From the IMG/VR virus record IMGVR_UViG_3300029288_006769, positions 360,145 through 424,144 of that record: a DNA stretch of 64,000 bases; one strand, given 5' to 3'. A program made the translations under genes and the position numbers. Positions within the stretch are counted from its first letter, which is position 1; every line of letters begins with the position of its first letter. Origin of the DNA: a virus. The notes under the pieces were generated by a model. That model saw nothing but the letters and a program-made list of their open reading frames with translations. It was not told the DNA's origin and ran no database searches. This document shows, one piece after another, positions 3,741 to 45,531 of the stretch.

Positions 3741-3741
3741 T

Positions 3742-29898: not shown

Positions 29899-29904
29899 AA
29901 AAAA

Positions 29905-29981: not shown

Positions 29982-30073
29982 ATAAAATTAAATGCTCTAC
30001 CTATCTCTGACTCTTTCCTTTTCAGACAGCCCTCAGGTTTAAAATCGTGTAGAGCAATTTCAAAGATCAAAAT

Positions 30074-30145
30074 CGGGACATAGGAGAATTGAACTCCTGT
30101 CTCCGGGTTGACAGCCCGGTGGCCTAACCACTAGACGAATGCCCC
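30074..30145 (-). tRNA. tRNA-Asp(GTC)
   Basis: GGGGCAT/ATGTCCC-G; loop CT-GTC-AA. Confidence 0.92.
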
Positions 30146-30154
30146 ATAAAATTT

Positions 30155-30228
30155 TGGACCGTGTCGGGATTGAACCGACCAAAAAGCTGCTTGCAGGGCA
30201 GCTCCGCCCCCATTGACTGTTACGGCCC
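30155..30228 (-). tRNA. tRNA-Ala(TGC)-like with atypical D arm and C33
   Basis: GGGCCGT/ACGGTCC-A with G3:U70; loop CC-TGC-AA; normal T arm. Confidence 0.7.
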
Positions 30229-30340
30229 TTAAAAAACTTTGAGCTATATGAGAGTCTTCTACTACCATTCCTGCCGGCTATATAGCTCAATAGCCTTGGG
30301 AAATGGTACCTGATTACTCAAGTTCTAAAAGTCTCTCTTT

Positions 30341-30598
30341 TTAAATATCTGTCAAAGAACTATCTCTGTTCTTTATTTCTTGCATTGAGAGACCATAAAG
30401 TCTCCTTTGATTACCACACATAGCACAAGAACAAAGTTTTGTCGTATTTCTTCTTCTTGCTGCTGCTAAATGAATAGCCTTCTCTCTTTCATTGGGATCT
30501 TTTATCCATCTGTAAGAATCCCAATAACCTGCTCCACGCCTTTTGCCCTTGGTATCTCCAATGACAAAACGTTCAAGCCTGTTTCCAGGGTGTGACAT
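30341..30598 (-). CDS. Hypothetical basic protein within the tRNA cluster
   Basis: MSHPGNR... with AAGGAG SD; CSCAMCGN.RR motif. Confidence 0.6.
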   Translation of the reverse strand: MSHPGNRLERFVIGDTKGKRRGAGYWDSYRWIKDPNEREKAIHLAAARRRNTTKLCSCAMCGNQRRLYGLSMQEIKNRDSSLTDI

Positions 30599-30669
30599 AA
30601 TGACTCCTTTCCGCACTCTCTGGTGGAGTGCTATAGACTGGATGCCATTATGTCCTCCTTTCAATTTTA

Positions 30670-30743
30670 TGGGCCATGAGGGACTTGAACCCCCGGCCTT
30701 CTCGTTATGAGCGAGCTACTCTTACCAACTGAGTTAATGACCC
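30670..30743 (-). tRNA. tRNA-CAT (Met or Ile2)
   Basis: GGGTCAT/ATGGCCC-A; loop CT-CAT-AA. Confidence 0.9.
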
Positions 30744-30754
30744 GTATATTTCAA

Positions 30755-30828
30755 TAGGGGTGAGAGGGATTGAACCTCCGACCTTCTGCTTATCAGACAA
30801 ACGCTCTTACCAACTGAGCTACACCCCT
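30755..30828 (-). tRNA. tRNA-Ile(GAT)
   Basis: AGGGGTG/CACCCCT-A; loop CT-GAT-AA. Confidence 0.93.
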
Positions 30829-30841
30829 GTAAATTTCAAAG

Positions 30842-30913
30842 TAGCCCCAAGGAGAATTGAACTCCTGCTATCAGGTTGAAAACCTGGTGTCCTTACCACT
30901 AGACCATGGGGCC
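30842..30913 (-). tRNA. tRNA-Glu(TTC)
   Basis: GGCCCCA/TGGGGCT-A; loop TT-TTC-AA. Confidence 0.93.
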
Positions 30914-30918
30914 AAAAA

Positions 30919-30994
30919 TGGAGCCAGCACCCGGGCTCAAACCGGGAGTCTTTCGATTACAAGTCGAATGCTTCATCAATTAAGCTATACTGGC
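30919..30994 (-). tRNA. tRNA-Thr(TGT), encoded CCA
   Basis: GCCAGTA/TGCTGGC-TCCA; loop CT-TGT-AA; A19/U56 elbow. Confidence 0.9.
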
Positions 30995-33587: not shown

Positions 33588-33970
33588 TCCTCTTGACCTT
33601 TTTGGTCCCAATCAAGAAGTTCCACAGTTTGACCACTTAGTTCATGAGTACTATCTGGTAGAAATTGAATTTTTCCATCAGTTATAAAACTGTGACAAAT
33701 TATTTGCTTGCAACCAACAGCTTTATTGTTTTCAAAAACCCAAGTACTCGGATCTCCTGGTGGGTTTTTTACATGTTTGGTTAAAATAGAAGCTCTAATT
33801 GTTGGTTTTTCTCTATCACCATTCCAAGTCCATACAGGTCCTTTAGGGACAGTGTCTGTTAAGGCTTGTGCAGGTGTAAAACCACTTGTAGAAAACCAAT
33901 GAGCACAATTACAACCTGGACAAAGAAAGAAATACACGCCTTGCTGTGCAGAATCATTTATTTTACTCAT
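33584..33970 (-). CDS. Conserved Cys/His-rich protein (DUF6527-like)
   Basis: CPGC..H, WTWNGD.EKPT..SI, CHSFITDGKIQFL.DSTH.LSGQTV. Confidence 0.7.
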   Translation of the reverse strand: MSKINDSAQQGVYFFLCPGCNCAHWFSTSGFTPAQALTDTVPKGPVWTWNGDREKPTIRASILTKHVKNPPGDPSTWVFENNKAVGCKQIICHSFITDGKIQFLPDSTHELSGQTVELLDWDQKGQED

Positions 33971-35010
33971 GAATCCAACCTTTTTGTTTTAATGATTTTG
34001 TAAAGAATTTCTACTATTTCAGCATCAAAAAGAATTCCACGTCCATCAAATAAAATTTGCAAAGCATATTCTATGTCTTGTGCTTTTCTATAAGGTCTAT
34101 TTGAAACCAATGCATTGAAAGTGTCAGCAACAGCAAGAATACGAGCACCAGCAGGAATAGCTTTTTCTTTTAGTTTATGGGGATAACCTTCACCATTCCA
34201 ACGTTCATGGTGATGCAAAACATAATCACTTATTTTCCCAACAGCATCAACGGGCTTAATGATTTTATATGACATTTCTGAATGATGTTTGATGAGTTCA
34301 TATTCTTCATCTGACAATTTGTCTTTCTTAAAAAGTATTTCATCCCTTATTCCGATTTTTCCAATGTCATGTAGTCTGCCAGCTATAGTAACATCTTCAA
34401 TAAAGTTTGAGTCATCAGAATATTCCCAACAAATTTTCTCTGAGAGTTCACCTACCATTTCTGAATGGTTTTTTGTGTACTCATCTTTTTGTTCTAGAGC
34501 ATTTGTCAATGCTGTCAAAGTATTAAAGAAAATTTTATCTCTCTCTTTTTGAATTGCAACTATTTTTGTACGCAGGTTTTCTGCTAGATGTGTGTTTCTC
34601 CTTAGATTCCTTGTATTACGAGAAGCTTGTAACAGTAACAAACCTAAAGTCATGAGTTGAAAAGGTTTACTCAAAAATGCATATATATTCTTTTTTATAA
34701 TTGTAGTAATAAATTGATCTGTGTTGTAACCTGTAGTTAAAATAATTGTCAATTCAGGGTCAATTCCACTAGCTTGATCTATAAAATCAAACCCAGAGCA
34801 ACCATTGTCAAGGCAAATATCGCAAAGAGCTACATCAAATTGATGAGCTTCTATAAGTTCTATTGCTTTAGGTAATGATTCAGCAACAAAGCAATGACCT
34901 CCATGATTGTCGACAAACAATTTGAGAACATCTAACTCTGTACGATCATCATCAATGACAAGCACAGTCAGATTCATCAAAAAGGGCGTGTGCTGAATTG
35001 AACTTGGCAT
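33967..35010 (-). CDS. Response regulator receiver plus HD-GYP cyclic dinucleotide phosphodiesterase
   Basis: REC (IDDD, CDI, TG, KPF); HS..V, LHDIGK, HHERWNGEGYP, ADTFNAL..NRPYR. Confidence 0.93.
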   Translation of the reverse strand: MPSSIQHTPFLMNLTVLVIDDDRTELDVLKLFVDNHGGHCFVAESLPKAIELIEAHQFDVALCDICLDNGCSGFDFIDQASGIDPELTIILTTGYNTDQFITTIIKKNIYAFLSKPFQLMTLGLLLLQASRNTRNLRRNTHLAENLRTKIVAIQKERDKIFFNTLTALTNALEQKDEYTKNHSEMVGELSEKICWEYSDDSNFIEDVTIAGRLHDIGKIGIRDEILFKKDKLSDEEYELIKHHSEMSYKIIKPVDAVGKISDYVLHHHERWNGEGYPHKLKEKAIPAGARILAVADTFNALVSNRPYRKAQDIEYALQILFDGRGILFDAEIVEILYKIIKTKRLDS

Positions 35011-38000
35011 TATTTTGTCCTTTTAAGTTCTTCTGCTATGATAGTATTTGTCGAGTCTAACGCCACAGCTTTTGTTATATATTCAGTATAAGTTTTGATT
35101 TCGCCATTAAATTTACAAATCATTCCAAGCCCATAATATGACATAGCATATTTCGGATCTATTGAAATAGCTTTATTGTAATACTCTCTTGCTGTTTCGT
35201 TGTCTTTTTTCAACATATAGATGTCAGCTCTTTTACAAATTGCTGGAGCATATCTAGAATCAACATAAGAAACCATTTTGCAATATTCCAAAGCATCATC
35301 AAGATTGCCTTGCTCAATTTTGATTTGAGCTAAGAACATCATTAAATTAATATCTTGCGGCTCTTTCTTTCTCATTTCTACAGCTATATTTTCAGCACCA
35401 GCATAATCCTTCAATTGATATAGAATTTTTGCATAGATATCTAGATTTGTAAAACTCCTGTTTATTGCAAGCAATTGTTCTGTTTCATTTTTTGCTTCAT
35501 TGTATTTAGAGAATCTTTTGTAAGAGTCAATTAGATATAGTCTTATTGTTGTGTCTTTAGATTTTTGTTGTTTTGCTGTTTGCAAGAATTCAAAGCCTTC
35601 ACTCGAATAGGCATCCTTCAAATAGATTTTGCCCAGTATATATAACATATCAGGGTCAGAATTGTTTTGTGCCTTCGCCATTCGTAGATAGGCTAGACTT
35701 TCATGTAGTTCGCCTACTTCATAACAATAGATGCCGAGTTCCTTGTTTGCATTAAAGTTCTTACTGTCTCTGCCCAAAATCTCTTTATATGTCTTTATTT
35801 CCAAAACTCTGTTGCCGTTCTGTTTGTAGCAATATGCTAGTTTTGAAAGCATATCTACTGAAATAGTGTCTTTCAATGCTTTTGTTTTTTCAAAGTTATA
35901 CTGAGCTCTCTTATAATCCCCAAGCTTGAAATAAATTCCACTTAGTCTTTCATAGTTTCTATAATCATAATAGAATCTTTTTGTATTGGCTACATAGATG
36001 TCTTTTGCAAGATTGACATGTAGCTGTTCTTGTAATCTTCCCATGTGGTAGAAATATGTAGAATCTCTAGTATTGATTTGACAATAGAGTTTATAGAACT
36101 TGATTGCTTTTTCTATATTTTTCAAATTTTCATGAGAAACAGCTATGAGTCTATAAACTTCAGCTATTCTAGAATAACTGTTGAATTTCGTACACATAGT
36201 CAAAATTGAAATTGCATTATCATATTCTTTAGTCATGAAAAGCGCTCTGCCATATATAAAACTTTGATCAGCATTGCCTATAATATTTGCTAGAGCAAAG
36301 TATTTTACTGCTGACTTGTAGTCTTCTTTTTCATAAGAGTATACTCCTACTTTTAAACTCAATTTATCATTTTTATATTTTGCAAGATAAGATTTGTACG
36401 TGCTCATTTCTAAATCTTTTTTACCTTGTTTAAGATAAAGAGCTGCAAGGTTGAAGTATTCGTTTTTTGCTGTTTGTACAAGATTGACATATTGTTCATA
36501 AGAAGCTATTGCATTTGAAATCGCACCAGTTCTTTCTTGACAAATAGCTATTTTTAGAATAATAGGTGCCGTGATTTTTTCTTGTTGTAATTTATTGTAG
36601 ACATTCAATGCTTTTGTGTAGCTCCCCATATCATAATAAGTATTAGCAAGGCTTATTATAACCAAACTATCAGCTTGTTTTGTCACTAAAGCTCTATTGC
36701 AGATTCTTATAATTTCTGAGACATTTTTCTTGATTATGACTACATAGCTGAAATTCTTGAGATAGTCTATTCTTGAATAAGCTAATGTCATTGTTTTGTT
36801 GTATTCTAGATAGGCATTGTCATAATCTTTAAGTTTGAAATAGACATCAGCTAATTTTTTATGAGCATCTACATTTTGAGCATCAAGATTCAGGATCTTT
36901 TTTAGATACACAATGGAATTCTGATTGTCTTTTGCTTTCCCTAGCAATGTAACAATTTTGAAATAGTCTGTGACATTGAAAACTCTAAGTTTTTCTAATT
37001 CATAATAGTGTTTCAATGCCTGAGCGTTTTTTTCAGTTGCATAATAAGAATTTGCAAGTCTTTCTCTAGATTCTATGTCTTTAGAATCGAGTTCTACAAT
37101 TTTAGTGTCTATAACAAATAGTTGTTCTTTTCTATTTGTCTCTCTATAACAAACTGCTAAATCTTTGTATTGCTCAAGGCTTGGCGTAAATTTCACAAGA
37201 ATTTCAAGTTGTTCAATTGCTTTTTGATATTTCTTTTTGTCAAGAGCAATTTTATAGATTATTTCTCTGCATTTATTGGAAGCAGCTCCTTTTCTTAAAA
37301 GTGTTTCAGAAGCATCTTTTGCTTTATCATAATCTTGTTGTTTGAAAGCACAAATCGCTATTCTTTCAAGAACATCAAAATTTTCTCTAAAAATATATGT
37401 CTTTTCGTAATATTTTTGAGCTTTATCATAATTTTTGTTTTCATAATAGTAATCACCAAGTTGCAAAGCATTTTCTGGCGTATCTTTTTGTTTTGAAAGC
37501 CGAACTGCTATTTTTTTTGCTTTTGTCTTATAATTCTGTTTTTCATAAGCATCGATCAACAGGAAATACATTGGAATAGCTGATGAGTCAACTCTTAAAA
37601 CTTTATTTGCATATAATTCAATTTTAGCATAATCATTTGTAGTTGCATAGTATTGGGCTATAAGTCTATTGTATTCAAGACCTGCGTTTAACACTTCAAA
37701 TTCTTTTACATATTTCAAAACACTTACATAATCTTTCAAATTCATGTATATTTTTGCTATTTTCAATTTAAGCTGCAATGCTTGTTTGGCATCAGCTTTT
37801 TTTGTTGCTGCTTCATAAAAAGCAAGAGCTCTTGAAATATTTTTTTGTTCTTCTAAGCATTTCCCTTGATTTGTCAAATCTTCATATTGAAAACTTTGTA
37901 CTTGGAGTTTATTGTACTCAACAAAAGCTTCTTGGCATTGTCCTTTTGAGATATAAAGTCTAGCAAGTTTGAGTCTGTCCTCTATAGAAATATTGTTTAC

Positions 38001-38609
38001 AGTTTTCAAATACAATAATGAAGAATCAGATTGACCAAGAGCCGCATAACATAATGAAAGACGGAGTGCAATTGCATCATCTTTTTTAAGTGAATATTGT
38101 TTCAATAAATAGGGAATAGCTTGTTTATACAATTTTCTTTCATAGTAAATTGTGCCCAATGCTTCTTTAGCTTCTTTTGTTGTTCTAATTTTTTCGAACC
38201 ATTTTTGGGCCTCATCATACCTTCTAATTTTGTAACAGATACTAGCATGTTGAAGTTTGTAACTTTCAGTAATTGAGTCTTTTTGTACGCATTTAGAAGA
38301 GAATTCATAAGCTCTTTCGCAAAGACCGATTTTACAATAGACTCTAGCAAGAGAAGTTAGAACAAGACAATTAGAAGGATAAAGTCTATATAAAGACAGA
38401 TAGCAAGCAATTGCTTTTTCATCAAAGCCGAGATTTTCATGTGCAAAACCATAAGCATAAGTAGTTTCTTCGTCTTGCACTTTATAGTTTGTCTCAATAT
38501 ATTTGATAACTTGCTTATAATCTTTTTTAAAAAGAAGACCATCAAGTTTCTTGTCGGCAAAACTTGCAATAGCGACTAAGAAAATCAAGAAAAATTTTAA
38601 TGTTTTCAT
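35010..38609 (-). CDS. Large exported TPR-repeat protein
   Basis: Signal peptide MKTLKFFLIFLVAIASFA; many 34 aa TPR-like repeats; GGAGG SD. Confidence 0.85.
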   Translation of the reverse strand: MKTLKFFLIFLVAIASFADKKLDGLLFKKDYKQVIKYIETNYKVQDEETTYAYGFAHENLGFDEKAIACYLSLYRLYPSNCLVLTSLARVYCKIGLCERAYEFSSKCVQKDSITESYKLQHASICYKIRRYDEAQKWFEKIRTTKEAKEALGTIYYERKLYKQAIPYLLKQYSLKKDDAIALRLSLCYAALGQSDSSLLYLKTVNNISIEDRLKLARLYISKGQCQEAFVEYNKLQVQSFQYEDLTNQGKCLEEQKNISRALAFYEAATKKADAKQALQLKLKIAKIYMNLKDYVSVLKYVKEFEVLNAGLEYNRLIAQYYATTNDYAKIELYANKVLRVDSSAIPMYFLLIDAYEKQNYKTKAKKIAVRLSKQKDTPENALQLGDYYYENKNYDKAQKYYEKTYIFRENFDVLERIAICAFKQQDYDKAKDASETLLRKGAASNKCREIIYKIALDKKKYQKAIEQLEILVKFTPSLEQYKDLAVCYRETNRKEQLFVIDTKIVELDSKDIESRERLANSYYATEKNAQALKHYYELEKLRVFNVTDYFKIVTLLGKAKDNQNSIVYLKKILNLDAQNVDAHKKLADVYFKLKDYDNAYLEYNKTMTLAYSRIDYLKNFSYVVIIKKNVSEIIRICNRALVTKQADSLVIISLANTYYDMGSYTKALNVYNKLQQEKITAPIILKIAICQERTGAISNAIASYEQYVNLVQTAKNEYFNLAALYLKQGKKDLEMSTYKSYLAKYKNDKLSLKVGVYSYEKEDYKSAVKYFALANIIGNADQSFIYGRALFMTKEYDNAISILTMCTKFNSYSRIAEVYRLIAVSHENLKNIEKAIKFYKLYCQINTRDSTYFYHMGRLQEQLHVNLAKDIYVANTKRFYYDYRNYERLSGIYFKLGDYKRAQYNFEKTKALKDTISVDMLSKLAYCYKQNGNRVLEIKTYKEILGRDSKNFNANKELGIYCYEVGELHESLAYLRMAKAQNNSDPDMLYILGKIYLKDAYSSEGFEFLQTAKQQKSKDTTIRLYLIDSYKRFSKYNEAKNETEQLLAINRSFTNLDIYAKILYQLKDYAGAENIAVEMRKKEPQDINLMMFLAQIKIEQGNLDDALEYCKMVSYVDSRYAPAICKRADIYMLKKDNETAREYYNKAISIDPKYAMSYYGLGMICKFNGEIKTYTEYITKAVALDSTNTIIAEELKRTK

Positions 38610-38831
38610 ATTCCCTCCCATTGTTATGGGCAGCAAAAAAACATCCAGAACAACTTTTGAATTAATCAATGTTCCAGAAATCGTCAAGTTAATTTAATTT
38701 TGATAGGAAGGAATTTAATTGAGAGTAAATCAAATCTATCTAACCAACAAATATCTACCCTTATCCTTATATTATAGATTATACCACCTTATTGGTTTAA
38801 AATGAAAATAAAAAATATTTTTTAAAAATAA

Positions 38832-38861
38832 TTGTTACTTTTGCTAACTTTGATATATATT
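38832..38861 (+). promoter_or_regulatory. Sigma70-like promoter for the RNA array
   Basis: TTGTTA-N18-TATATT, placing the start at ~38868, the 5' end of unit 1. Confidence 0.5.
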
Positions 38862-38868
38862 TATTCTA

Positions 38869-39009
38869 GAACAAATGCTCTTTAACAGCAAGTGCTTACA
38901 TTACTTTGTAGCTCAGCTGGTAGAGCGATTGCCTATTAAGCGATAAGTCTCAGGTTCGAATCCTGAAAAAGTAGCCAAAAACTAGCATTTACAACTCGAG
39001 CATTTGTTC
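38869..39009 (+). ncRNA. Y RNA-like tRNA mimic, unit 1 (normal-order tRNA body 38902-38977, anticodon ATT, ends GCCA)
   Basis: 12 bp terminal stem GAACAAATGCTC/GAGCATTTGTTC; conserved TTTAAC..AAGTGCTTACAT and AAAAACTAGCATT..AACTC; 76 nt cloverleaf inside. Confidence 0.8.
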
Positions 39010-39031
39010 ATTTCAAATTGAAAATAAATTT

Positions 39032-39188
39032 TTAAAACTGCTCTTTAACATCGGGTGCTTACATGGATATAACTTTAGTTCACCAAACCGAAGTTTGACG
39101 TTCGATTCGTCATTCCCCCGCTAAGAAAATATGTGTTTTCTTGGTGGGGGAAAGTAAAAAATAGCATACGTAACTCGAGCAGTTTTAA
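39032..39188 (+). ncRNA. Y RNA-like tRNA mimic, unit 2 (circularly permuted at the D-loop)
   Basis: Terminal stem TTAAAACTGCTC/GAGCAGTTTTAA; same scaffold; order is 3' half of D arm, degenerate anticodon arm, T arm TGACG-TTCGATT-CGTCA, acceptor TTCCCCC/GGGGGAA closed by a hairpin. Confidence 0.75.
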
Positions 39189-39201
39189 TTTTGAAAAATA
39201 A

Positions 39202-39337
39202 ACAAGTGTTCTTTAACTCTAAGTGCTTACATGCTTTTAAGCTCAATTGGTAGAGCAATTGTTATTGGAACAATTCGTTCTTGGTTCAAATCCAGGAAAA
39301 GCGACCAAAAAATAGCATTTATAACTCGAACACTTGT
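39202..39337 (+). ncRNA. Y RNA-like tRNA mimic, unit 3 (normal-order tRNA body 39232-39307, loop TA-TTG-GA, ends ACCA)
   Basis: Terminal stem ACAAGTGTTC/GAACACTTGT; same scaffold; 76 nt cloverleaf inside. Confidence 0.8.
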
Positions 39338-39356
39338 CTTTTAAATAAGGAAAAAA

Positions 39357-39507
39357 TAAGTCATGTCTTTTAACCTTGGAAGCTTACATTTTTTTCGTCA
39401 GTTCAAATCTGACTGCTCCACCGGCGGTGGAGTATGGCCGAGTGGTTTAAGGCACCCAACTGCTAATTGGACAAAGAAAACAGCTCTCAGAACTCAGACA
39501 TGACTTA
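39357..39507 (+). ncRNA. Y RNA-like tRNA mimic, unit 4 (tRNA-Ser(GCT)-like, circularly permuted at the variable arm)
   Basis: Terminal stem TAAGTCATGTCT/AGACATGACTTA; order is T arm GTCAG-TTCAAAT-CTGAC, acceptor hairpin TGCTCCACC/GGTGGAGTA, D arm GCCGAGTGGTTTAAGGC, anticodon arm CCAA-CTGCTAA-TTGG. Confidence 0.8.
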
Positions 39508-39529
39508 AATTTTAAAATTCACGATGAAG

Positions 39530-39565
39530 AAGAGGGCTCAATCAAAAGAGCCCTCTTTTGTTTTT
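39530..39565 (+). terminator. Intrinsic terminator closing the RNA array
   Basis: AAGAGGGCTC/GAGCCCTCTT stem followed by TTGTTTTT. Confidence 0.8.
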
Positions 39566-39635
39566 AGCATTATTTTTAGAATTTTACAAGTTAAAATATA
39601 GAAATAGAGCAACAAGCAAAAGAAAGGAATGAACT

Positions 39636-39887
39636 ATGTCAACGATCCATGTTGTTTACGGCGGAAGAAATGAAGATCTTGAGTTTGACGAAGTGTTCAG
39701 ACCAGATAGACATGAAGCTCTGGGAGTAACAAATCCTGAACCAAGAAATATGACACCAGAAATTGTAAAACGAGCTTTAGCAAATCATTATGATGTGAAT
39801 CAAAATGAATTTGAAGCTCATTTTGTCGAAATCAACTCGAACGGAAATATCACCGTACGTCCCAATGCGAGATGGGGAGGTCATTAA
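39636..39887 (+). CDS. Putative ubiquitin-like (beta-grasp) protein ending WGG-H
   Basis: 83 aa, beta-beta-alpha-beta-beta pattern, C-terminal VRPNARWGGH; in operon with JAB and ThiF/E1. Confidence 0.6.
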   Translation: MSTIHVVYGGRNEDLEFDEVFRPDRHEALGVTNPEPRNMTPEIVKRALANHYDVNQNEFEAHFVEINSNGNITVRPNARWGGH

Positions 39888-39888
39888 A

Positions 39889-41439
39889 ATGACAACTATG
39901 GTAAAAAAAGAACAAGACATCAGGGTTAAAATCCTCAACTCATTTATGACCTGTCCTCATCGAGACACGGGTGAATTGCAAAAAATTCATGCAGAAATGA
40001 GAGAGAAAGATCCTGTGTTCTATGCACATCTTGCTGCATGGTACAAAAAGAATGGTGATCTTCGTGATCATAATGAAGTTTTCACAGCCATGTTGATCAC
40101 AGATCCTTTCTTGGACAATCGCGAAACAGGTATTGCTCTTTTTCAAAATCAAGCTCCCTTTATGAAAATCAAAATTCTCAGTTTCATTAAAGGGAAGAAA
40201 ATCACTCTGAGGGAAAAGACGGGTGAACAAGTCAAACGCGGAAAGAAAATGATTGATGAGATCAAAAATTCTAAGAAACAAGTTGGTCTTATCAAAAATA
40301 TCCCAAACATACTTCGAACTGAAATCGAAAGATATGTTCGTTGGCTTGAAAAAGACAATGATAGATTTGATTCTGTTGCTCTGACAAATTTCAATGATTT
40401 GAAATCTTTTTATGCAGGTAAAGGTGTTCAGATCAAACCTTGTCCAAGAGCACAACAAATCCTGTTTGAAGAAAAATTTCCTGAAGATAGCAAACTTACT
40501 GTTTTCAAACAAATCAGAGAAGCTGATACGCCTGAGAAAGCAGCCAATCTGATGGTGCAACATAAAATTCCTTACACTATTGCAGTAGGTTTGAGAGATA
40601 AAATTACGCCATCTATTTTGATTGCTTTGATCAATAACATGACTGCTCAGGAAATTATTACAAACATTGCTTCTTTGCAAGAAAAAGGTGCAATGGATAA
40701 TCCTGGAACAAAAAAATTGATCACAGAAAAACTTGAAGCAGCAAAAACAGCAAAGAATGTAACTGCTCTCAAATCCAAAAGAGCTAAGCAGACAGGAAGA
40801 GTCAAAGACGAAACTGTTCTCAAGCAGTTGGATGAAATTGCTGATAAGCAAATCAAAAAATCTGGGTCAATCAAAGTTTCTACTGGGTTGCTCATTGACA
40901 GATCAGGTTCTATGGATGTTGCAATTCAAGTTGGAAAACAGATTGCTGCAACAATTTGTGGTTCAATGGAAGCTGATTTGTTCGGTGTCGCATTTGATAC
41001 TATGGCACAAGCTGTTAAAGCAAGTGAAAATACATTAACTGCTTGGGAAAAAGCATTTGCGCCAATCCATGCAAGCGGTAGAACTTCAGTTGGTTGTGCT
41101 CTTGATTTCATGATCAGGTATAAATTATATGCTGAACAGCTCATTATTGTGACTGATGAGGATGAAAACCAGAATCCACGATTTGCTGATGTATTTCCAA
41201 AGTATGTACAGGAAATGAAAGTAACTCCTGCAATTATTATCGTAAGAGTAGGTGACAAAAAAACTGGACTCAGTACTTCGCTTAAAAACGCAGGAATTTC
41301 TTTTGATTCATATGAACCATCAGGAAATGACTACTATGGACTTTCAGGTCTGATACCTTTGCTTTCTCGTAAATCAAAGTTAGACCTTGTTTATGAAATT
41401 ATGGACTTTCCACTTCCGATTCGAAAGTCTTATGTCTAA
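39889..41439 (+). CDS. TROVE (Ro60-like) plus vWA domain RNA-binding protein
   Basis: N-terminal DPVFYAHLAAWY...GDLRD helical TROVE-like region; MIDAS DRSGS, G.T, IIVTDE; start 39889 after GGAGG. Confidence 0.75.
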   Translation: MTTMVKKEQDIRVKILNSFMTCPHRDTGELQKIHAEMREKDPVFYAHLAAWYKKNGDLRDHNEVFTAMLITDPFLDNRETGIALFQNQAPFMKIKILSFIKGKKITLREKTGEQVKRGKKMIDEIKNSKKQVGLIKNIPNILRTEIERYVRWLEKDNDRFDSVALTNFNDLKSFYAGKGVQIKPCPRAQQILFEEKFPEDSKLTVFKQIREADTPEKAANLMVQHKIPYTIAVGLRDKITPSILIALINNMTAQEIITNIASLQEKGAMDNPGTKKLITEKLEAAKTAKNVTALKSKRAKQTGRVKDETVLKQLDEIADKQIKKSGSIKVSTGLLIDRSGSMDVAIQVGKQIAATICGSMEADLFGVAFDTMAQAVKASENTLTAWEKAFAPIHASGRTSVGCALDFMIRYKLYAEQLIIVTDEDENQNPRFADVFPKYVQEMKVTPAIIIVRVGDKKTGLSTSLKNAGISFDSYEPSGNDYYGLSGLIPLLSRKSKLDLVYEIMDFPLPIRKSYV

Positions 41440-42277
41440 TGTTTTTGATCTTATTAAAAAAGTAGGGGAGAAAGAAGCGGCTATTCAAGAGTTTATCTCC
41501 CCTATTTTTTTTAATGAATATGTAGCCACCAAGATCGAAGGCATTGTTTATAAATTCAAAATTTCGCAAAAAACTCCAGGTTGGTATAAAATACAATCCA
41601 TAGACAGAAAGACAGCAAAAACTGTCGAACAGGCTGATCTTTCTGATATCGATACTTATTTGAAGTTTCTAACCAAGATTCGTTTTATTCTTGTAATGAA
41701 AAAGAATAACGTTTATTTTGGTATACCCGAAAAATCAAATAATTTAAAACTTCCATTTGAGCAAATGATCCCTGTGTATCTTACTGATGATTCAGTTCAA
41801 GATTTTGACAGAGTCATTGTGCGTTTTGATGGCGCAAATTTCTGGTACCATCAATTGGATTATTCAAATGACATTTCAAAGGCATCATATTTAAGAGAGA
41901 AATTGTTGAAAGTTGTCGATTCAAAGAAAATTAATTATTCGGGTTTGACAATCGAAGAAAAAATTGCTTATACTTTAAGAGTTACACTTGATAAAAAACT
42001 TGTAATTGACAAAAAGAAGACATCTCTTAAAGATGATGTTGAACATGCTGGTGGCGAATTTATAAAATTTACGGAAAAAAGCGACCATTTCAGCGTAACT
42101 TATATTGTCGATGGACAACAATATACAAGCCATGTGAGTAAAAACGAAAGTCATAGCGTAATAACTGCTGGAATTTGTTTGTCTGGTGAAGATAGAAAAT
42201 ATGATTTAAAAAGTCTTATAACAGTTATGAGAGAGGGTCAGCATGCAGGAAGAATCCATAGAACTCACAACTTTTAA
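41432..42277 (+). CDS. Conserved hypothetical protein, possible E2-like carrier
   Basis: Single Cys in C-terminal AGICLSG motif; coupled to the TROVE gene. Confidence 0.45.
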   Translation: MSNVFDLIKKVGEKEAAIQEFISPIFFNEYVATKIEGIVYKFKISQKTPGWYKIQSIDRKTAKTVEQADLSDIDTYLKFLTKIRFILVMKKNNVYFGIPEKSNNLKLPFEQMIPVYLTDDSVQDFDRVIVRFDGANFWYHQLDYSNDISKASYLREKLLKVVDSKKINYSGLTIEEKIAYTLRVTLDKKLVIDKKKTSLKDDVEHAGGEFIKFTEKSDHFSVTYIVDGQQYTSHVSKNESHSVITAGICLSGEDRKYDLKSLITVMREGQHAGRIHRTHNF

Positions 42278-42656
42278 AGAAAGATGCTGGACATTATACG
42301 GTTTTAAAATTGGAAAATTTATTTTCGGTTGGCTTAAATATTTGGATGAAGGTGAAGAGTTTGCTGTAGAATTTGATTGGCGAAAAGGTTTGTCAAAATT
42401 TATCATCGGGTGGTTTCATACCCATCCAACTACGGTTACTTTGAATCCAAGCAAAGAAGACAAAAAAACAATGCGTTCTTGGGTTAGAACTTTAGAACGC
42501 CCATTGATTTGTGGGATCATGTATGACCATAAAAAAAGAAGAGAATTTCTTTGGAGAAATTGTTATTTATTTAAACGTTGGCCTGGCGGCAATGTGAACT
42601 ACCAACCAATTATGAGAGATAAACTAATCAAACATTTTTATATTGGAATTCTATGA
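42243..42656 (+). CDS. JAB/MPN (JAMM) metallopeptidase
   Basis: N-terminal E, IIGWFHTHP.....PS.ED motif. Confidence 0.85.
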   Translation: MQEESIELTTFKERCWTLYGFKIGKFIFGWLKYLDEGEEFAVEFDWRKGLSKFIIGWFHTHPTTVTLNPSKEDKKTMRSWVRTLERPLICGIMYDHKKRREFLWRNCYLFKRWPGGNVNYQPIMRDKLIKHFYIGIL

Positions 42657-42784
42657 AAAATAAAGGGTTCAAAAAAGAAACTCCTGAAGATGTTATTAAC
42701 TGGCTTGCTTCTATGAAAATAAAGGTGCATTATTTAATAAAAAGCTCAGGAAAAAATTAGAAAAAAGAAAGAAAAAAATGAGCA

Positions 42785-43021
42785 TTGTCTAAATTTCCTT
42801 ATAATGTCTATGCAACAAAAGAAAAAGTGTATATAGAAAAGAAAACAGGATGTGCAGCTCGCTTATGTTCTATATCTGCCGAATTTTATGACAGTAACGA
42901 AAAACAGGAAATAATTTTGGAATGTTCATTTAAAAAATTCCAAGAGAAAGCTATGTCAAGAGGATATATAGTACTTGATAAATTCAGACCTGCATGGGAT
43001 ATTGAAAGAGAGATAAAATGA
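42785..43021 (+). CDS. Hypothetical protein
   Basis: 78 aa ORF overlapping the ThiF start. Confidence 0.45.
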   Translation: MSKFPYNVYATKEKVYIEKKTGCAARLCSISAEFYDSNEKQEIILECSFKKFQEKAMSRGYIVLDKFRPAWDIEREIK

Positions 43022-43650
43022 GTACTTTCAAACATGAAGAACTATATCGGGAAAAAGTATTATTCGAAATGATGTCAAAATTTTCTATTACTATGTGTGG
43101 TGCTGGAGCTATAGGTTCTAATCTTGTCGATAATTTGATCCGTCAAGGCTTCAAAAAAATTTCCGTAATAGATTTTGACAGAGTTGAAGATGGAAATAGA
43201 CATACACAAATATGGAGCTCAAGAGAGATTGGACAGCTTAAAGTAACAGCATTAAGAAATAGAATGTTTGAAGTTCTCAATACGCAAATTACTGCAATTT
43301 CTAAAAAACTTGATAAATCAAATCTTAATCTTATAGAGCCTTCAAGTTTAGTTATTGATGGCTTTGACAATGTACCAAGTAGAAAATTGATAACAGAATA
43401 TTGTAAAGAAAATAACATTGATTGTTTGCATATTGGTTTGTTCCAAGATTATGCTGAAATAATCTGGAACGAAAAATACAGAGTGCCTGATGAAGTAACT
43501 AATATGGATATATGTGAATATCCTTTAGCAAGGAATATAATTTTGTTGGCTATTGCTGTAGCGACAGAGATATTAATAGCATATTTAGAAACAGGTGAAA
43601 AGCGTAATTTCGTGATAACTTTAAAAGACTTCAAAATTTCGAGAATATAA
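43018..43650 (+). CDS. ThiF/E1-like adenylyltransferase
   Basis: GAGAIGS, IDFDRVE..N..TQ, K, IDGFDN..SR, DICEYP. Confidence 0.9.
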   Translation: MSTFKHEELYREKVLFEMMSKFSITMCGAGAIGSNLVDNLIRQGFKKISVIDFDRVEDGNRHTQIWSSREIGQLKVTALRNRMFEVLNTQITAISKKLDKSNLNLIEPSSLVIDGFDNVPSRKLITEYCKENNIDCLHIGLFQDYAEIIWNEKYRVPDEVTNMDICEYPLARNIILLAIAVATEILIAYLETGEKRNFVITLKDFKISRI

Positions 43651-44162
43651 TGGATATTTGGTTCAATATGTTGATCGGTATTCCCGGTTCTGGGAAATCT
43701 ACTTGGCTAAACATACAACCTCGAAAAACTTATGTTGTCTGTCCTGATTCAATACGATTATATTTAACTGGTGATATTTCAAATCATAGTCAAGAAGAGA
43801 CTGTTTGGAATATTGCAAAATACACAACACGTTGGGCTTTAGTAAATAATATTTCAATAACATTTGATGCAACTAACACAAGTACATTTTTAAGAAGAGA
43901 CTTTCTTGGGGCTCTTCCTCTTCAAGTATCGGATTTTAAACGCAAAGCAATTCTTTTTCCTACAGACCCAAATGTGGCTGTTTCAAGAGTTAATGCTAGA
44001 ACATTTGGCTCAAAAGTTCCACCAGAAAAAATATTTCAATCACATCTATTGTTTCAGCAAACTTTGAAAGATATTTTAGATGAAGATTGGGACTGTATAG
44101 AAACGATAGGAGACTCAAATGGCGGAAAAACTGTTAAAATCCCGGAAAGTGTCAGGACCTGA
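43650..44162 (+). CDS. P-loop kinase, polynucleotide kinase-like (AAA_33)
   Basis: GIPGSGKST, D.IR, FDATN....R, R...R...VP. Confidence 0.8.
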   Translation: MDIWFNMLIGIPGSGKSTWLNIQPRKTYVVCPDSIRLYLTGDISNHSQEETVWNIAKYTTRWALVNNISITFDATNTSTFLRRDFLGALPLQVSDFKRKAILFPTDPNVAVSRVNARTFGSKVPPEKIFQSHLLFQQTLKDILDEDWDCIETIGDSNGGKTVKIPESVRT

Positions 44163-45531
44163 AAACGATGGTTTTACAGAAACAGTAAAACATAAAGTTT
44201 TATTCTGCGGCAACCCTGAAGGAAACAACAACAAGTTCTATTCAATAGAGCTTCAAAAAAATTCTAAAGGTCAATATCGGTTATTTACTCATTATGGCCG
44301 TCTCGGAAAAACCGATGTTTATGAAGTCCGCGATGAATACCTCGGTAGACCTCTCGATCTTTCAACAGCAGATCGTGAATTTGAAGTTATCCTCGCTTCA
44401 AAACTCAAAGGCAAGAAAAAAGAAAGCGAACTCGGTGGAAACCGTGTTGAAAAATATGAATTGGTCGAGACATTCGCACCCACGGTTGGCTCTGTCAATG
44501 TCCGCGGAAAAAATGTTGGCATTACTGTTTCAGTCAAAAAAGATGATGTTGTTGACTCTTATTCCAATCCGGAAGTTGCTCGAATTATCCGTCAAATTGT
44601 CGATGAAAACATCCATACCATTTCTACATTGACAACCTTGAAACTAACATCAAATGGGTTTGAAACTCCCCTGGGTCCCGTCACAAAAGAACATGTGGCA
44701 AATGCAAGAGTCCCACTTATGTCTTTGAAATCTCTGATGGTTAATGACGAAATCAACCCCGACAATCAATTGACTCGAGATCACAATGCAAAATATTTCT
44801 CCATGATTCCCCATCCCTTTGGACACAAAATAACAAAAGATGACTGGATTCTTTCTGCGGCAAAACTCGCCGAAGAATTCGAATTGCTTGACAACCTTGA
44901 ATCAGCTGTTACAATGGGTGCCGCCATGCAAAATGCCGCACAACAAAAACGCGCTCTTGGTACAGATATCGAAATAGTTTCCGACAAAAGAGAAATTGAT
45001 CGAATTTACTCCTATATTACGACAACAAAAGCGGGAAATCATCGTGGTTCTGATGTGTGGAACTGGAAACCTAAAAACGTTTTCAAAATCAAAATACCTG
45101 CAGAAAGAGCAAGATTTGAAAAAACTGAAAAACAATTCGGTAACCAACATGAACTCTTCCATGGCTCAAAAAATGGCAATATTTTGAGTATTCTCAAGGG
45201 GGGTCTGATCATCCCTTCATGCAATGCCGGTCATGTCACAGGTCGTATGTTCGGTGATGGTATTTATTTTGCTAATGCATCGACGAAATCTCTTAATTAC
45301 TCTACAGGATTTTGGGGCGGACGTGGCAATAAAAATTCAAATTCTTTCTTATTTCTTGCAAATGTTGCTATGGGAAAAACATTTGTAGCCCATGACGCTC
45401 GGTATTCTGGAATACCACATGGATATGACTCAATTCATGCTCAAAAAGGAAGATCGTTATATAATGACGAATTTATTGTTTTCAAATTGCAACAAGCCAC
45501 TTTAACATATCTGGTTGAAATGACCAAATAA
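44119..45531 (+). CDS. WGR-domain PARP-family ADP-ribosyltransferase
   Basis: NNNKFY...HYGRLG (WGR); YFSMIPH.FG (regulatory domain); LFHGS, GRMFGDGIYFA..STKSLNY, NDEFIVF (H-Y-E triad). Confidence 0.92.
   Translation: MAEKLLKSRKVSGPENDGFTETVKHKVLFCGNPEGNNNKFYSIELQKNSKGQYRLFTHYGRLGKTDVYEVRDEYLGRPLDLSTADREFEVILASKLKGKKKESELGGNRVEKYELVETFAPTVGSVNVRGKNVGITVSVKKDDVVDSYSNPEVARIIRQIVDENIHTISTLTTLKLTSNGFETPLGPVTKEHVANARVPLMSLKSLMVNDEINPDNQLTRDHNAKYFSMIPHPFGHKITKDDWILSAAKLAEEFELLDNLESAVTMGAAMQNAAQQKRALGTDIEIVSDKREIDRIYSYITTTKAGNHRGSDVWNWKPKNVFKIKIPAERARFEKTEKQFGNQHELFHGSKNGNILSILKGGLIIPSCNAGHVTGRMFGDGIYFANASTKSLNYSTGFWGGRGNKNSNSFLFLANVAMGKTFVAHDARYSGIPHGYDSIHAQKGRSLYNDEFIVFKLQQATLTYLVEMTK

What the first reader, a model, noticed from the sequence alone, without database searches (positions are those of the whole stretch)
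38869..39507. Array of four Y RNA-like tRNA mimics sharing one scaffold, upstream of a TROVE/Ro60 gene
Seen in sequence: four units (38869-39009, 39032-39188, 39202-39337, 39357-39507) separated by 13-22 nt AT-rich linkers, between a promoter and a terminator. Each has a 10-12 bp terminal stem whose sequence differs between units but pairs perfectly. Each also has an invariant internal loop (TTTAAC opposite AACTC) and a second helix (GTGCT/AGCAT, covarying to AAGCT/AGCTC in unit 4). TACAT and an A-run flank a tRNA-like body. Established: bacterial Ro60 (Rsr) genes lie beside Y RNAs, and YrlA RNAs are tRNA mimics joined to a Ro-binding stem. Inference: the scaffold is the binding site for the adjacent TROVE-vWA protein, forming a set of RNPs that display different tRNA mimics as decoys or adaptors against host tRNA-targeting defences. 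I do not see the classical bulged-C Ro helix, so this appears to be a distinct class.
Basis: partly seen in the sequence, partly recalled or inferred. Interest (0 to 1): 0.96.

Follow-up and report, generated by a model that had tools for sequence, protein, structure and literature searches.

The report
Scaffolded tRNA-mimic RNAs beside Ro60-like gene
A 424-kb phage carries four small structured RNAs that share one conserved two-helix handle but display different, partly rearranged tRNA look-alikes; this new RNA family always sits next to a highly divergent Ro60-type RNA-binding protein in giant phages and some bacteria, so it is probably a new kind of Y RNA.

Summary
Four units (38869-39009, 39032-39188, 39202-39337, 39357-39507, + strand) share a 10-12-bp terminal stem, a conserved internal loop (UUUAAC opposite AACUC), a 9-bp second helix, then UACAU, a tRNA-like body and an A-run.

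A covariance model built from relatives finds 213 such units in 82 related loci. All 18 scaffold pairs show compensatory changes: 89% of cells pair, against 57% when shuffled.

The downstream 516-aa protein has no Pfam TROVE match. Its AlphaFold model, however, aligns over its full length to Ro60 (Z 19.6, 434 residues), and its MIDAS residues are intact.

In six phage genomes searched whole, 25 of 29 full-length units lie within about 3 kb of this gene. The pairing also occurs in bacterial genomes, including the chromosome of the cultured Dictyobacter alpinus.

No match to the Rfam YrlA or Y RNA models, and no GNCGAA motif. Unlike YrlA, the bodies keep an anticodon arm, join the scaffold at several different points, and have hypervariable anticodons.

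The core cassette also encodes a ubiquitin-like protein, an OB-fold/Cys protein, a JAB protease and an E1.

Most likely this is a new Y-RNA-like partner family for a divergent Ro60. Binding, expression and the decoy role are untested. The scan had already noted this stretch and operon on the same DNA.

The parts
38832..38861 (+). Promoter-like site upstream of unit 1 (TTGTTA, 18-nt spacer, TATATT)
   Evidence: 9 of 12 matches, which is not above the shuffle expectation. The surrounding roughly 35 nt are conserved in the orthologous locus L001. Inferred, not shown.
38869..39009 (+). Unit 1. Scaffold plus a direct tRNA-like body (38902-38977) with anticodon loop CUAUUAA (AUU) and an encoded CCA.
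   Evidence: tRNA 57.4 bits; R1 113.4 bits; z -2.9. The orthologues carry other anticodons: UCC, UAA, UUG.
39032..39188 (+). Unit 2. Scaffold plus a rearranged tRNA-like body: an anticodon-like hairpin, a T arm and an acceptor capped by a hairpin of about 18 bp, with no closed D arm.
   Evidence: 63.4 bits; z -6.6. The relative L018:1565-1722 shows the same layout with the D stem split across the scaffold junction.
39202..39337 (+). Unit 3. Scaffold plus a direct tRNA-like body (39232-39307) with an encoded CCA. The anticodon arm can fold as a 7-bp stem with a 5-nt loop.
   Evidence: tRNA 48.8 bits; 108.3 bits; z -3.8. ARAGORN cannot assign the anticodon loops of orthologues L001 and L016, and makes no tRNA call at all for L086.
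39357..39507 (+). Unit 4. Scaffold plus a circularly permuted class-II tRNA-like body, in the order T arm, acceptor closed by a 3-nt loop, long D arm, anticodon arm (GCU). The scaffold sits where the variable arm would be.
   Evidence: 77.8 bits. ARAGORN finds a tRNA-Ser(GCU) only across the junction of the duplicated body. The acceptor stem shows compensatory changes against L001.
39528..39559 (+). Intrinsic terminator ending the RNA array
   Evidence: 12-pair stem, 6 G-C pairs, followed by a T-run.
39636..39887 (+). 83-aa ubiquitin-like candidate
   Evidence: Found in 82 of 94 loci. The C-terminus is conserved as NGNITVRPxxx(F/W)G followed by 0-5 residues. The ESM Atlas model resembles Prok_Ub, Ufm1 and ubiquitin at TM about 0.5, which is weak.
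39889..41439 (+). 516-aa divergent Ro60-like protein (helical-repeat ring plus vWA with MIDAS)
   Evidence: No Pfam hit. AF2 pLDDT 84.6. The top ten Foldseek hits are all Ro60/TROVE (E 4e-10). VIA gives Z 19.6 over 434 residues. D337, S339, S341, T399 and D423 are invariant.
41432..42277 (+). 281-aa protein with OB/S1/cold-shock-like barrels and an invariant Cys249. It overlaps the stop of the Ro60-like gene.
   Evidence: pLDDT 87.1. One search gives RNase II, exosome-cap and S1 matches with probability up to 0.97 but low TM. Found in 70 of 94 loci.
42243..42656 (+). JAB/JAMM-like peptidase
   Evidence: Weak Pfam Prok-JAB hit, PADLOC JAB models, found in 44 of 94 loci.
43018..43650 (+). ThiF/E1-like adenylating enzyme
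   Evidence: Pfam ThiF 3e-24, PADLOC E1-E2 2.5e-15. Found in 32 of 94 loci, many of which are cut short.

Best explanation
The four units are members of a previously undescribed family of Y-RNA-like noncoding RNAs.

Each RNA has two modules. The first is a conserved handle: a terminal stem S1, a 5-7 x 5-nt internal loop (UCYAAC opposite RACUY), a 9-bp helix H2 topped by G-C/C-G pairs, and an invariant UACA(U). The second is a variable tRNA-like head.

I infer that the handle is the docking site for the co-encoded divergent Ro60-like ring protein, possibly together with the OB-fold protein. Each unit would then form an RNP, as Rsr does with YrlA.

The head always keeps a T arm and an anticodon arm but is wired to the handle at different points: the acceptor end, the 7/8 junction, the D loop, position 26, or the variable arm. 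Its anticodon triplet changes rapidly. I infer that the head is a bait or adaptor for tRNA-recognising factors rather than a decoder.

The array is probably made as one transcript, from a promoter near 38832 to the terminator at 39528-39559, and cut in the AU-rich linkers.

Shown: structure conservation, the protein's fold and the genomic linkage. Inferred: binding, processing and function.
For: 1. Structure. R1 finds 213 units at E<=0.01 in 82 loci. In the 144 distinct best units, 89.4% of cells pair, against 56.8% when shuffled and at most 41% when the partner is slid. The covariation score is 0.874 against 0.24. All 18 pairs show double changes.

2. Conserved single-stranded motifs. UACA is present in 144 of 144 units. 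The A, C and U of RACUY are present in 143-144 of 144. The loop consensus is U-C-Y-A-A-C. This pattern suits a protein-binding site.

3. Partner protein. The fold is Ro60 over the full length with MIDAS intact. There is no other TROVE gene in the genome.

4. Linkage.
- Units lie upstream of the Ro60-like gene in 60 of 62 loci.
- In six whole phage records, 25 of 29 full-length hits lie within about 3 kb of the gene.
- Ordinary tRNAs score at most 30 bits, and only partially.
- All 11 prokaryote-genome loci carrying a 36-56% identical protein also have units.

5. Heads are not ordinary tRNAs.
- Of 144, 71 are direct, 34 are permuted at the variable region, and the rest are permuted elsewhere or are not tRNA-like.
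- 21 of 93 three-base anticodons have A34 other than ACG, against 0 of 37 in the phage's ordinary tRNAs. Twelve loops are non-standard.
- In 36 related pairs the anticodon differs at 57% of positions, against 12% for the rest of the body.

6. Precedent. Rsr-YrlA in bacteria and phages (PMC4201824; 10.1101/312249), and two Y-RNA-like genes upstream of Ro60 in Thermus phage phiLo (PMC12135203).
Against: There is no binding or expression data. The RNA matches no Y RNA or YrlA model. It lacks the GNCGAA/CGAA motif thought to contact Ro60, which is present in only 1 of 144 units.

The Ro60-like protein is so divergent (no Pfam hit; profile against PDB E 0.1) that its RNA specificity cannot be transferred from known Ro60.

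Linkage cannot separate Ro60-like from the other cassette proteins. The 281-aa protein has nucleic-acid-binding-type folds.

Four of 29 full-length units sit in tRNA clusters far from the gene: G000 at 179.6 kb and G005 at 183 kb. Three loci with 4 kb of flank have no unit.

Half of the heads are complete tRNAs, and 43 of 71 of those have an encoded CCA, so they could be matured and used.

Two caveats apply to the covariation. The seed alignment was chosen with a scanner that required the stem and the motifs. Alignment A4 is fitted to the model. Both inflate conservation and pairing somewhat.
Confidence: 0.6

Rival explanations
1. The RNAs work with the other half of the cassette rather than with the Ro60-like ring. 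In one version the handle is bound by the 281-aa OB-fold/Cys protein. In another, the tRNA-like heads are substrates of the ubiquitin-like/E1 module. That could mean a sulfur relay for thiolation as in TtuB/TtuC or Urm1/Uba4, or transfer of the activated ubiquitin-like protein to the RNA or to proteins the RNA captures. Ro60-like would then be an accessory or quality-control factor.
For: The 83-aa, 281-aa, JAB and E1 genes are as tightly linked to the array as Ro60-like: 82, 70, 44 and 32 of 94 loci, many of them truncated. This also holds in Dictyobacter.

The 281-aa protein models as tandem OB/S1/CSD-like barrels and overlaps the stop of Ro60-like.

The ubiquitin-like protein ends in a conserved Gly.

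From established knowledge, ubiquitin-like protein plus E1 pairs serve tRNA thiolation in Thermus and eukaryotes.
Against: No PP-loop thiolase or recognisable E2 fold was found. The OB matches have low TM. Ro60 is the one cassette member whose fold has a documented habit of binding a stem formed by the 5' and 3' ends of tRNA-like RNAs encoded next door. Capped acceptors exclude chemistry at a CCA end for about half of the units.
Confidence: 0.2
2. The units are expression and maturation cassettes for unusual but functional phage tRNAs. The leader-trailer stem and conserved loops would be processing or stabilising signals. The permuted forms would be matured through cleavage and ligation, for example by the phage RtcB, as with permuted tRNA genes in algae and archaea.
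For: ARAGORN of 144 heads as complete tRNAs, and 43 of these end in CCA. UACAU abuts position +1. One extra unit in G000 lies directly after tRNA-Leu(CAA) in a tRNA cluster. The phage encodes an intein-containing RtcB ligase at 52999-55392 and a PNK-like kinase.
Against: None of the 37 ordinary tRNAs of this phage has the scaffold.

Many heads have capped acceptors. Unit 4's cap is a 3-nt loop with no discriminator or CCA. Others have split D arms, or no tRNA features at all.

Anticodons are hypervariable while identity elements stay fixed. A34 and odd loops are frequent.

There is no bulge-helix-bulge motif at the junctions (read from sequence). This explanation does not account for the strict linkage to Ro60-like.
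Confidence: 0.12
3. The units are a repeat or mobile-element remnant, meaning inverted repeats flanking captured tRNA pieces, with no RNA-level function.
For: Tandem copies flanked by inverted repeats can arise by duplication. Unit number varies from 1 to 7 between loci.
Against: Stem sequences differ in every unit yet keep pairing, with compensatory changes at all 18 pairs. The single-stranded motifs are invariant across phages and six bacterial phyla. Orientation and position relative to the same gene are conserved, and the array has its own terminator.
Confidence: 0.02

Closest known systems
YrlA (Rfam RF02553), the tRNA-like Y RNA of bacterial Rsr/Ro60; PMC4201824 and PDB 6CU1 (10.1101/312249)
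   Same: It is encoded within a few kb of a Ro60-type gene, sometimes in several copies. The 5' and 3' ends pair into a stem, and the distal module mimics tRNA with T and D arms. Many copies have a closed acceptor and resemble circularly permuted tRNAs. It occurs in phages as well as bacteria.
   Different: - No match to the model: nothing at the array even at E<=10, and a genome best of 27 bits against a cut-off of 69.
- No GNCGAA motif.
- The handle has its own invariant motifs: UCYAAC, RACUY and UACAU.
- YrlA is opened at the anticodon and so has none. These RNAs keep an anticodon arm and are opened at the acceptor end, the 7/8 junction, the D loop, position 26 or the variable arm.
- The anticodons are hypervariable.
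- Arrays hold up to 7 units.
- The partner protein escapes Pfam TROVE and sits in a ubiquitin-like/E1/JAB cassette rather than with RtcB/RtcA.
Thermus phage phiLo Ro60 with Yrl1 and Yrl2 (PMC12135203; PDB 9KOP, 9L5Y)
   Same: A phage-encoded Ro60 ring with Y-RNA-like genes immediately upstream. phiLo Ro60 is among the top structural matches of the protein here.
   Different: The phiLo RNAs were identified by their CGAA motif and have the stem-bulge-stem Y RNA form without tRNA bodies. Protein sequence similarity is not significant (profile E 0.1).
Metazoan and Deinococcus Y RNAs (Ro60 binds a bulged helix formed by the RNA ends)
   Same: The overall logic is the same. A terminal helix interrupted by a conserved asymmetric element serves as the presumed protein site, and a variable distal module serves as effector.
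   Different: The sequence motif and loop geometry differ: a 5-7 x 5 internal loop instead of a bulged C in a GGUCCGA-type helix. No Rfam Y_RNA hit.
Circularly permuted and split tRNA genes (Cyanidioschyzon merolae, some archaea)
   Same: Units of type B have the T arm and 3' acceptor strand upstream of the 5' acceptor strand, D arm and anticodon arm.
   Different: In those genes the termini form a bulge-helix-bulge and are ligated, and the acceptor linker is removed to give a working tRNA. Here the acceptor is often capped by 3-4 nt or by a long hairpin, the termini form an 18-bp two-helix handle with conserved loops, and the anticodons are non-standard.
Bil (BilABCD) and type II CBASS Cap2/Cap3 ubiquitin-like conjugation modules
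   Same: The flanking genes encode a small protein ending in Gly, an E1-like adenylating enzyme that matches PADLOC E1-E2 models, and a JAB peptidase.
   Different: No recognisable E2 was found. The module is joined to a Ro60-like protein and a structured RNA array, a combination I found in no paper.

Membership tests
Ro60 / TROVE proteins | Sequence match to Pfam TROVE (PF05731) | tested here: not met
   No hit at E<=10 for the protein. No TROVE match anywhere in the 424-kb genome, while the Deinococcus control is positive. Profile against PDB sequences gives only E 0.1 to phiLo TROVE. PHROG 850 'RNA-binding protein' matches at E 4e-4, over the vWA part only.
Ro60 / TROVE proteins | Helical-repeat ring followed by a C-terminal vWA domain, over the full length | tested here: met
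   AF2 model pLDDT 84.6. The top ten Foldseek hits are all Ro60/TROVE, TM 0.50-0.59, E 4e-10 to 1e-8. VIA gives Z 16-19.6 over 417-436 residues for the same entries, above the vWA-only hits at Z about 15 over about 155 residues.
Ro60 / TROVE proteins | MIDAS motif in the vWA domain (DxSxS, T, D) | tested here: met
   D337, S339, S341, T399 and D423 are invariant in 30 homologues. The motif reads DRSGSM in the translation.
Ro60 / TROVE proteins | Binds Y RNA or misfolded RNA | not testable with these tools
   Needs EMSA, pull-down or cryo-EM.
YrlA (RF02553) | Score at or above the Rfam gathering threshold (69 bits) | tested here: not met
   No YrlA or Y_RNA hit on 38700-39650 at E<=10. The whole-genome best is 27.5 bits, elsewhere in the genome.
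YrlA (RF02553) | Conserved GNCGAA(N)G motif in the 5' strand of the Ro-binding stem | tested here: not met
   GNCGAA occurs in the 5' scaffold of 1 of 144 units and CGAA in 6 of 144. Neither occurs in the four window units.
YrlA (RF02553) | tRNA-like module opened at the anticodon, with a closed acceptor and with T and D arms | tested here: not met
   Units 1 and 3 have open acceptors with CCA. Units 2 and 4 have closed acceptors but retain an anticodon arm and are opened at the D region or the variable region.
YrlA (RF02553) | Encoded within about 4 kb of a Ro60 orthologue | tested here: met
   The array ends 385 nt upstream of the Ro60-like start. The same holds in 60 of 62 loci.
tRNA (RF00005) | Cloverleaf scoring above the Rfam threshold | tested here: inconclusive
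   Units 1 and 3 pass at 57.4 and 48.8 bits. Units 2 and 4 fail, with at best a 16.6-bit partial. Family-wide, ARAGORN of 144 as direct tRNAs.
tRNA (RF00005) | Conserved, decodable anticodon loop | tested here: not met
   Unit 1 has AUU. Unit 3's arm can fold as 7 bp with a 5-nt loop. Orthologues change the triplet. The triplet diverges at 57% against 12% for the body. A34 occurs in 21 of 93, and 12 of 105 loops are non-standard.
Permuted tRNA genes | Termini forming a bulge-helix-bulge for ligation, and an acceptor linker removable by RNase P/Z | tested here: inconclusive
   Read from sequence only. The junction is an 18-bp two-helix handle with 5-7-nt loops, not a 3-4-3 BHB. Unit 4's acceptor cap is 3 nt. 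No RNA data are available.

The most novel reading that the evidence does not exclude
The cassette is a tRNA-mimic-guided tagging machine. Ro60-like rings hold an array of interchangeable baits whose hypervariable anticodon arms capture tRNA-directed enzymes, such as anticodon nucleases or modification enzymes of the opponent. The co-encoded ubiquitin-like protein, E1, JAB and OB/Cys protein then conjugate the ubiquitin-like protein to whatever is captured, or to the RNP itself. This would be an RNA-specified ubiquitin-like conjugation system, used by giant phages and by some bacteria in conflict.
Probability: 0.1. Interest if true: 0.93.

Novelty: new variant of a known kind. Interest (0 to 1): 0.8.

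Why it matters
Ro60-Y RNA particles are conserved from bacteria to humans, yet their effector logic is still poorly understood. This family is a natural experiment on that question. One conserved handle carries many different tRNA-shaped heads, wired at several different junctions, and only the anticodon triplet evolves fast. That pattern points to the anticodon arm as the working end.

The finding enlarges the Ro60 family with a branch invisible to Pfam (about 300 homologues). It also supplies a covariance model for its RNA partner.

It links Ro60 for the first time, as far as I could find, to a ubiquitin-like/E1/JAB module.

It also offers a cultured organism, Dictyobacter alpinus Uno16, in which the RNP can be tested. 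If the heads are decoys or baits for tRNA-targeting enzymes, this would be a new strategy in phage-host conflict over the translation apparatus.

Tried and rejected
**Searches that found nothing**
- Rfam at the gathering threshold and at E<=10 gave only tRNA hits plus noise.
- The YrlA model found nothing at the array in a whole-genome search.
- Pfam, PDB-sequence (single protein and profile), PHROGs and PADLOC searches gave no TROVE assignment for the 516-aa protein. Only the fold search resolved it.
- blastn against the phage collection matched only the tRNA-like parts, aligning them to ordinary phage tRNA-Asn and tRNA-Lys genes.

**Methods that had to be changed**
- A strict regular expression for the window's own motifs found only close relatives. 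I replaced it with a structural scanner and then a covariance model.
- MAFFT on all 80 units misaligned units with shorter loops. I used a consistent 33-sequence subset to build the model.

**Steps that could not be run**
I therefore could not test whether that protein occurs without Ro60-like.
- Three reviews on bacterial Y RNAs and RNA repair systems were not held.
- Complex prediction was not used, because the central claim is RNA-protein binding, which it cannot test.

**Readings considered and dropped**
- A bulge-helix-bulge splicing motif, a kink-turn or loop E in the handle: the sequence does not fit.
- The units as plain pre-tRNAs, or as a repeat element: see the rival explanations.
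Full report
**Where the window lies.** The window is the last 64 kb of a 424,144-bp virus record, estimated 98% complete. This is a huge phage with 37 ordinary tRNA genes, an amber-suppressor-like tRNA(CUA) and a tmRNA.

**The observation.**
- The + strand from 38869 to 39507 holds four units at exactly the reported coordinates.
- Each unit starts and ends with a perfect 10-12-bp stem (S1) whose sequence is different in every unit.
- Inside S1 there is an internal loop, UUUAAC(A) on the 5' side and AACUC on the 3' side.
- A second helix (H2) follows. It is 9 bp long and often has one internal mismatch. Its top is G-C, C-G and U-A.
- Next come the pentamer UACAU, a body of 81-98 nt and an A-rich run that leads back into H2.
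- The linkers are 22, 13 and 19 nt of A/T.
- A clean intrinsic terminator follows at 39528-39559.
- The promoter-like site at 38832-38861 is not statistically distinctive, but it is conserved in an orthologous locus.
- Folding z-scores are -2.9 to -6.6.

**The four bodies.**
- Units 1 and 3 contain tRNA-like sequences that pass Rfam's tRNA threshold (57.4 and 48.8 bits) and carry an encoded CCA.
- Unit 1's anticodon is AUU. Unit 3's anticodon arm can fold as 7 bp with a 5-nt loop.
- Unit 4 gives no tRNA call as it stands. It becomes a class-II tRNA-Ser(GCU) when the body is circularly permuted. Its order is T arm, acceptor closed by a 3-nt loop, long D arm, anticodon arm. The scaffold therefore occupies the place of the long variable arm.
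- Unit 2 has an anticodon-like hairpin, a T arm and an acceptor capped by a hairpin of about 18 bp, but no closed D arm. In the relative L018:1565-1722 the two strands of the D stem lie at opposite ends of the body, so the scaffold is inserted in the D loop.

**This is a family, not a local curiosity.** The 516-aa protein encoded downstream has about 300 homologues in metagenomes and viral contigs of up to 512 kb. I fetched 14 viral, 80 metagenomic and 11 prokaryote-genome loci around such homologues.

A structural scanner found 105 distinct units. I built covariance model R1 from 33 consistently aligned units, specifying only S1 and H2 as structure. R1 then found 213 units at E<=0.01 in 82 loci, almost all of them full-length matches.

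On the 144 distinct best units:
- 89.4% of scaffold cells form standard pairs, against 56.8% when shuffled and 28-41% when the partner is slid by 1-3 columns.
- The covariation score is 0.874 against 0.24.
- All 18 pairs have changes on both sides. For example, the pair under UACAU is U-A in 69 units, A-U in 29 and G-C in 20.

The single-stranded elements are far more conserved than the helices. UACA is invariant (144 of 144). The A, C and U of RACUY are present in 143-144 of 144. The 5' loop reads U-C-Y-A-A-C.

Two caveats apply. The seeds were picked with a scanner that demanded these motifs and the stem. Alignment A4 is also fitted to the model. The numbers are therefore somewhat inflated, but the slid-partner control and the many non-seed hits make the structure secure.

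**The protein.** Pfam, PDB-sequence, PHROGs and PADLOC searches give no TROVE assignment. Pfam TROVE finds nothing in the whole phage genome, while the Deinococcus control is positive.

An AlphaFold model built from 30 homologues has pLDDT 84.6. Its ten best Foldseek matches are all Ro60/TROVE structures: human and Xenopus Ro60, Deinococcus Rsr and Thermus phage phiLo Ro60. E-values run from 4e-10 to 1e-8. VIA-align gives Z 16-19.6 over 417-436 residues for those entries, above the vWA-only matches at Z about 15 over about 155 residues.

The MIDAS residues D337, S339, S341, T399 and D423 are invariant.

**Linkage.**
- Among the 62 loci holding the 150 best units, the array lies upstream of the Ro60-like gene in 60. 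It is on the same strand in 48 and divergent in 12, at 0.4-2.7 kb. It lies downstream in 2.
- Searched whole, G000 and five related phage records (131-470 kb) give 29 full-length hits. Of these, 25 lie within about 3 kb of the gene.
- The other 4 sit in tRNA clusters, at G000:179634-179810 and G005:182.7-183.3 kb.
- Ordinary tRNAs give only partial hits of at most 30 bits.
- All 11 loci from prokaryote genomes (protein identity 36-56%) have units. They include the 5.6-Mb sequence of the cultured Dictyobacter alpinus Uno16 and MAGs of Chloroflexota, Myxococcota, Planctomycetota, Acidobacteriota, Vulcanimicrobiota and KSB1.
- In Dictyobacter one unit has yet another wiring, opened between the D arm and the anticodon arm, and UACAA in place of UACAU.
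- Three loci with 4 kb of flank have no unit.

**The cassette is larger than RNA plus Ro60-like.** tblastn shows a conserved order: array, 83-aa ORF, Ro60-like, 281-aa ORF, JAB, ThiF/E1. These four genes occur in 82, 70, 44 and 32 of 94 loci, many of which are cut short.
- The 83-aa protein ends in a conserved NGNITVRPxxx(F/W)G followed by 0-5 residues. Its Atlas model weakly resembles Prok_Ub, Ufm1 and ubiquitin. It is a ubiquitin-like candidate whose tail a JAB peptidase could trim.
- The 281-aa protein truly starts at 41432 and overlaps the Ro60-like stop. It models well (pLDDT 87) as OB/S1/cold-shock-type barrels, with an invariant cysteine in a C-terminal domain.
- Dictyobacter has the same set, plus a HAD hydrolase and a second vWA protein, next to ordinary chromosomal genes.
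- Only in the closest relatives do a PNK-like kinase and a WGR-PARP follow.
- An intein-containing RtcB ligase and a NADAR protein lie 13 kb downstream.

Earlier notes of this scan on the same DNA describe the same operon. I had reached the ubiquitin-like reading independently.

**What the heads say.** Of the 144 distinct units:
- ARAGORN as direct tRNAs, and 43 of these end in CCA.
- 34 are tRNAs only after permutation at the variable region.
- The rest include D-loop and 7/8-junction permutations with capped acceptors, and some bodies with no tRNA features.

All the tRNA-derived types keep a T arm and an anticodon arm. Among 93 three-base anticodons, 21 have A34 other than ACG, against 0 of 37 in this phage's ordinary tRNAs. 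Twelve of 105 loops are not 7-nt loops, and 4 would read stop codons.

Orthologous units in close relatives keep the D arm, T arm and acceptor almost unchanged but swap the anticodon. Unit 1 reads AUU, UCC, UAA or UUG. Unit 4 reads GCU, UCU, UAG or UAU. Over 36 related pairs, the triplet differs at 57% of positions. The rest of the body differs at 12%, the scaffold at 15%, and the anticodon stem and the other loop positions at 20%. The pairs are not independent.

Real tRNA orthologues behave in the opposite way. The heads are therefore unlikely to be ordinary decoders. The triplet is either unconstrained or under diversifying selection.

**Comparison with what is known.** Bacterial Ro60 (Rsr) genes lie beside Y RNAs. 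The YrlA class joins a Ro-binding stem to a tRNA mimic with a closed acceptor, and it was reported in 254 bacteria and 22 phages (PMC4201824; structure in 10.1101/312249). Thermus phage phiLo Ro60 binds two upstream Y-RNA-like RNAs that were found through a CGAA motif (PMC12135203). Jumbo phages were noted to carry TROVE proteins only occasionally (PMC7824862).

The present RNAs share that logic but fail every membership test for YrlA:
- no hit to the model;
- no GNCGAA motif;
- a different opening point, with the anticodon arm retained.

I found no paper describing this handle, permuted tRNA-like arrays in huge phages, or a Ro60 plus ubiquitin-like/E1/JAB cassette. The library is incomplete, and three relevant reviews were not held.

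**Mechanism, with odds.**
- Most likely (about 0.6): the handle docks the Ro60-like ring, perhaps with the OB-fold protein, and each unit forms an RNP. Its tRNA-shaped head serves as bait or adaptor for tRNA-recognising factors. The array is transcribed as one RNA and cut in the AU-rich linkers. Fold, structure and linkage are shown. Binding, processing and function are inferred.
- About 0.2: the RNAs primarily serve the ubiquitin-like/E1/OB-Cys half of the cassette, either as ligands of the OB protein or as substrates.
- About 0.12: they are maturation cassettes for odd but functional tRNAs.
- About 0.02: they are a functionless repeat.

The bacterial copies show that the system is not exclusively a phage counter-defence.

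**What could not be done.** RNA-protein binding cannot be predicted with the tools at hand.

Noticed in passing
outside the window: G000:C1:179634-179810 (- strand; locus L100:1501-1677): A fifth full-length scaffold unit (78 bits) lies 220 kb from the array, directly downstream of tRNA-Leu(CAA) in the phage's main tRNA cluster. Its head is a permuted class-II tRNA-like body (anticodon CAA) whose acceptor is capped by a long hairpin. Record G005 has three such distant units at 182.7-183.3 kb.
   Followed up: partly
window 39636-43650: Conserved cassette around the Ro60-like gene. It comprises an 83-aa ubiquitin-like candidate ending in ...RPxxx(F/W)G, a 281-aa OB-fold protein with an invariant Cys, a JAB peptidase and a ThiF/E1. 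It is present from huge phages to Dictyobacter alpinus.
   Followed up: partly
window 52999-55392 (+) and 52356-52805 (+): An RtcB RNA ligase interrupted by an intein (Pfam RtcB 1.5e-54, Intein_splicing 6e-14), preceded by a NADAR-domain protein. RtcB is the classic operon partner of Rsr/YrlA in Salmonella.
   Followed up: no
window 43650-45531 (+): A PNK-like AAA_33 kinase and a WGR-PARP_reg-PARP protein follow the E1 gene. They are conserved only in the closest relatives (4 and 3 of 94 loci).
   Followed up: partly
outside the window: G000:C1:1278-1350 (-) and 199752-200147 (-): The phage encodes a tRNA with anticodon CUA (amber-reading; ARAGORN calls it 'Pyl') and its own tmRNA. TAG recoding in this phage may be worth checking.
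   Followed up: no
window 28577-30994 (-): Eleven ordinary tRNA genes in two clusters. None has the scaffold, and R1 gives only weak partial hits there.
   Followed up: yes
window 33967-38687 (-): A response-regulator/HD-GYP protein (347 aa) and a 1225-aa TPR-repeat protein are transcribed divergently from the RNA array. Both are unusual cargo for a phage.
   Followed up: no
L108 (Dictyobacter alpinus Uno16, NZ_BIFT01000001.1:4701971-4711428): Chromosomal version of the system, in this order: ubiquitin-like ORF (2969-3223, ends RPEALYG), three scaffold units (3250-3919), Ro60-like, HAD hydrolase, a separate vWA protein, the OB/Cys homologue and ThiF. An MFS transporter lies upstream. One unit is opened between the D and anticodon arms and has UACAA instead of UACAU.
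   Followed up: partly
L012, L041, L078: Three loci encode the Ro60-like protein, two of them with cassette genes, but show no scaffold unit within 4 kb on either side. The RNA may lie further away, have diverged beyond the model, or be absent.
   Followed up: no
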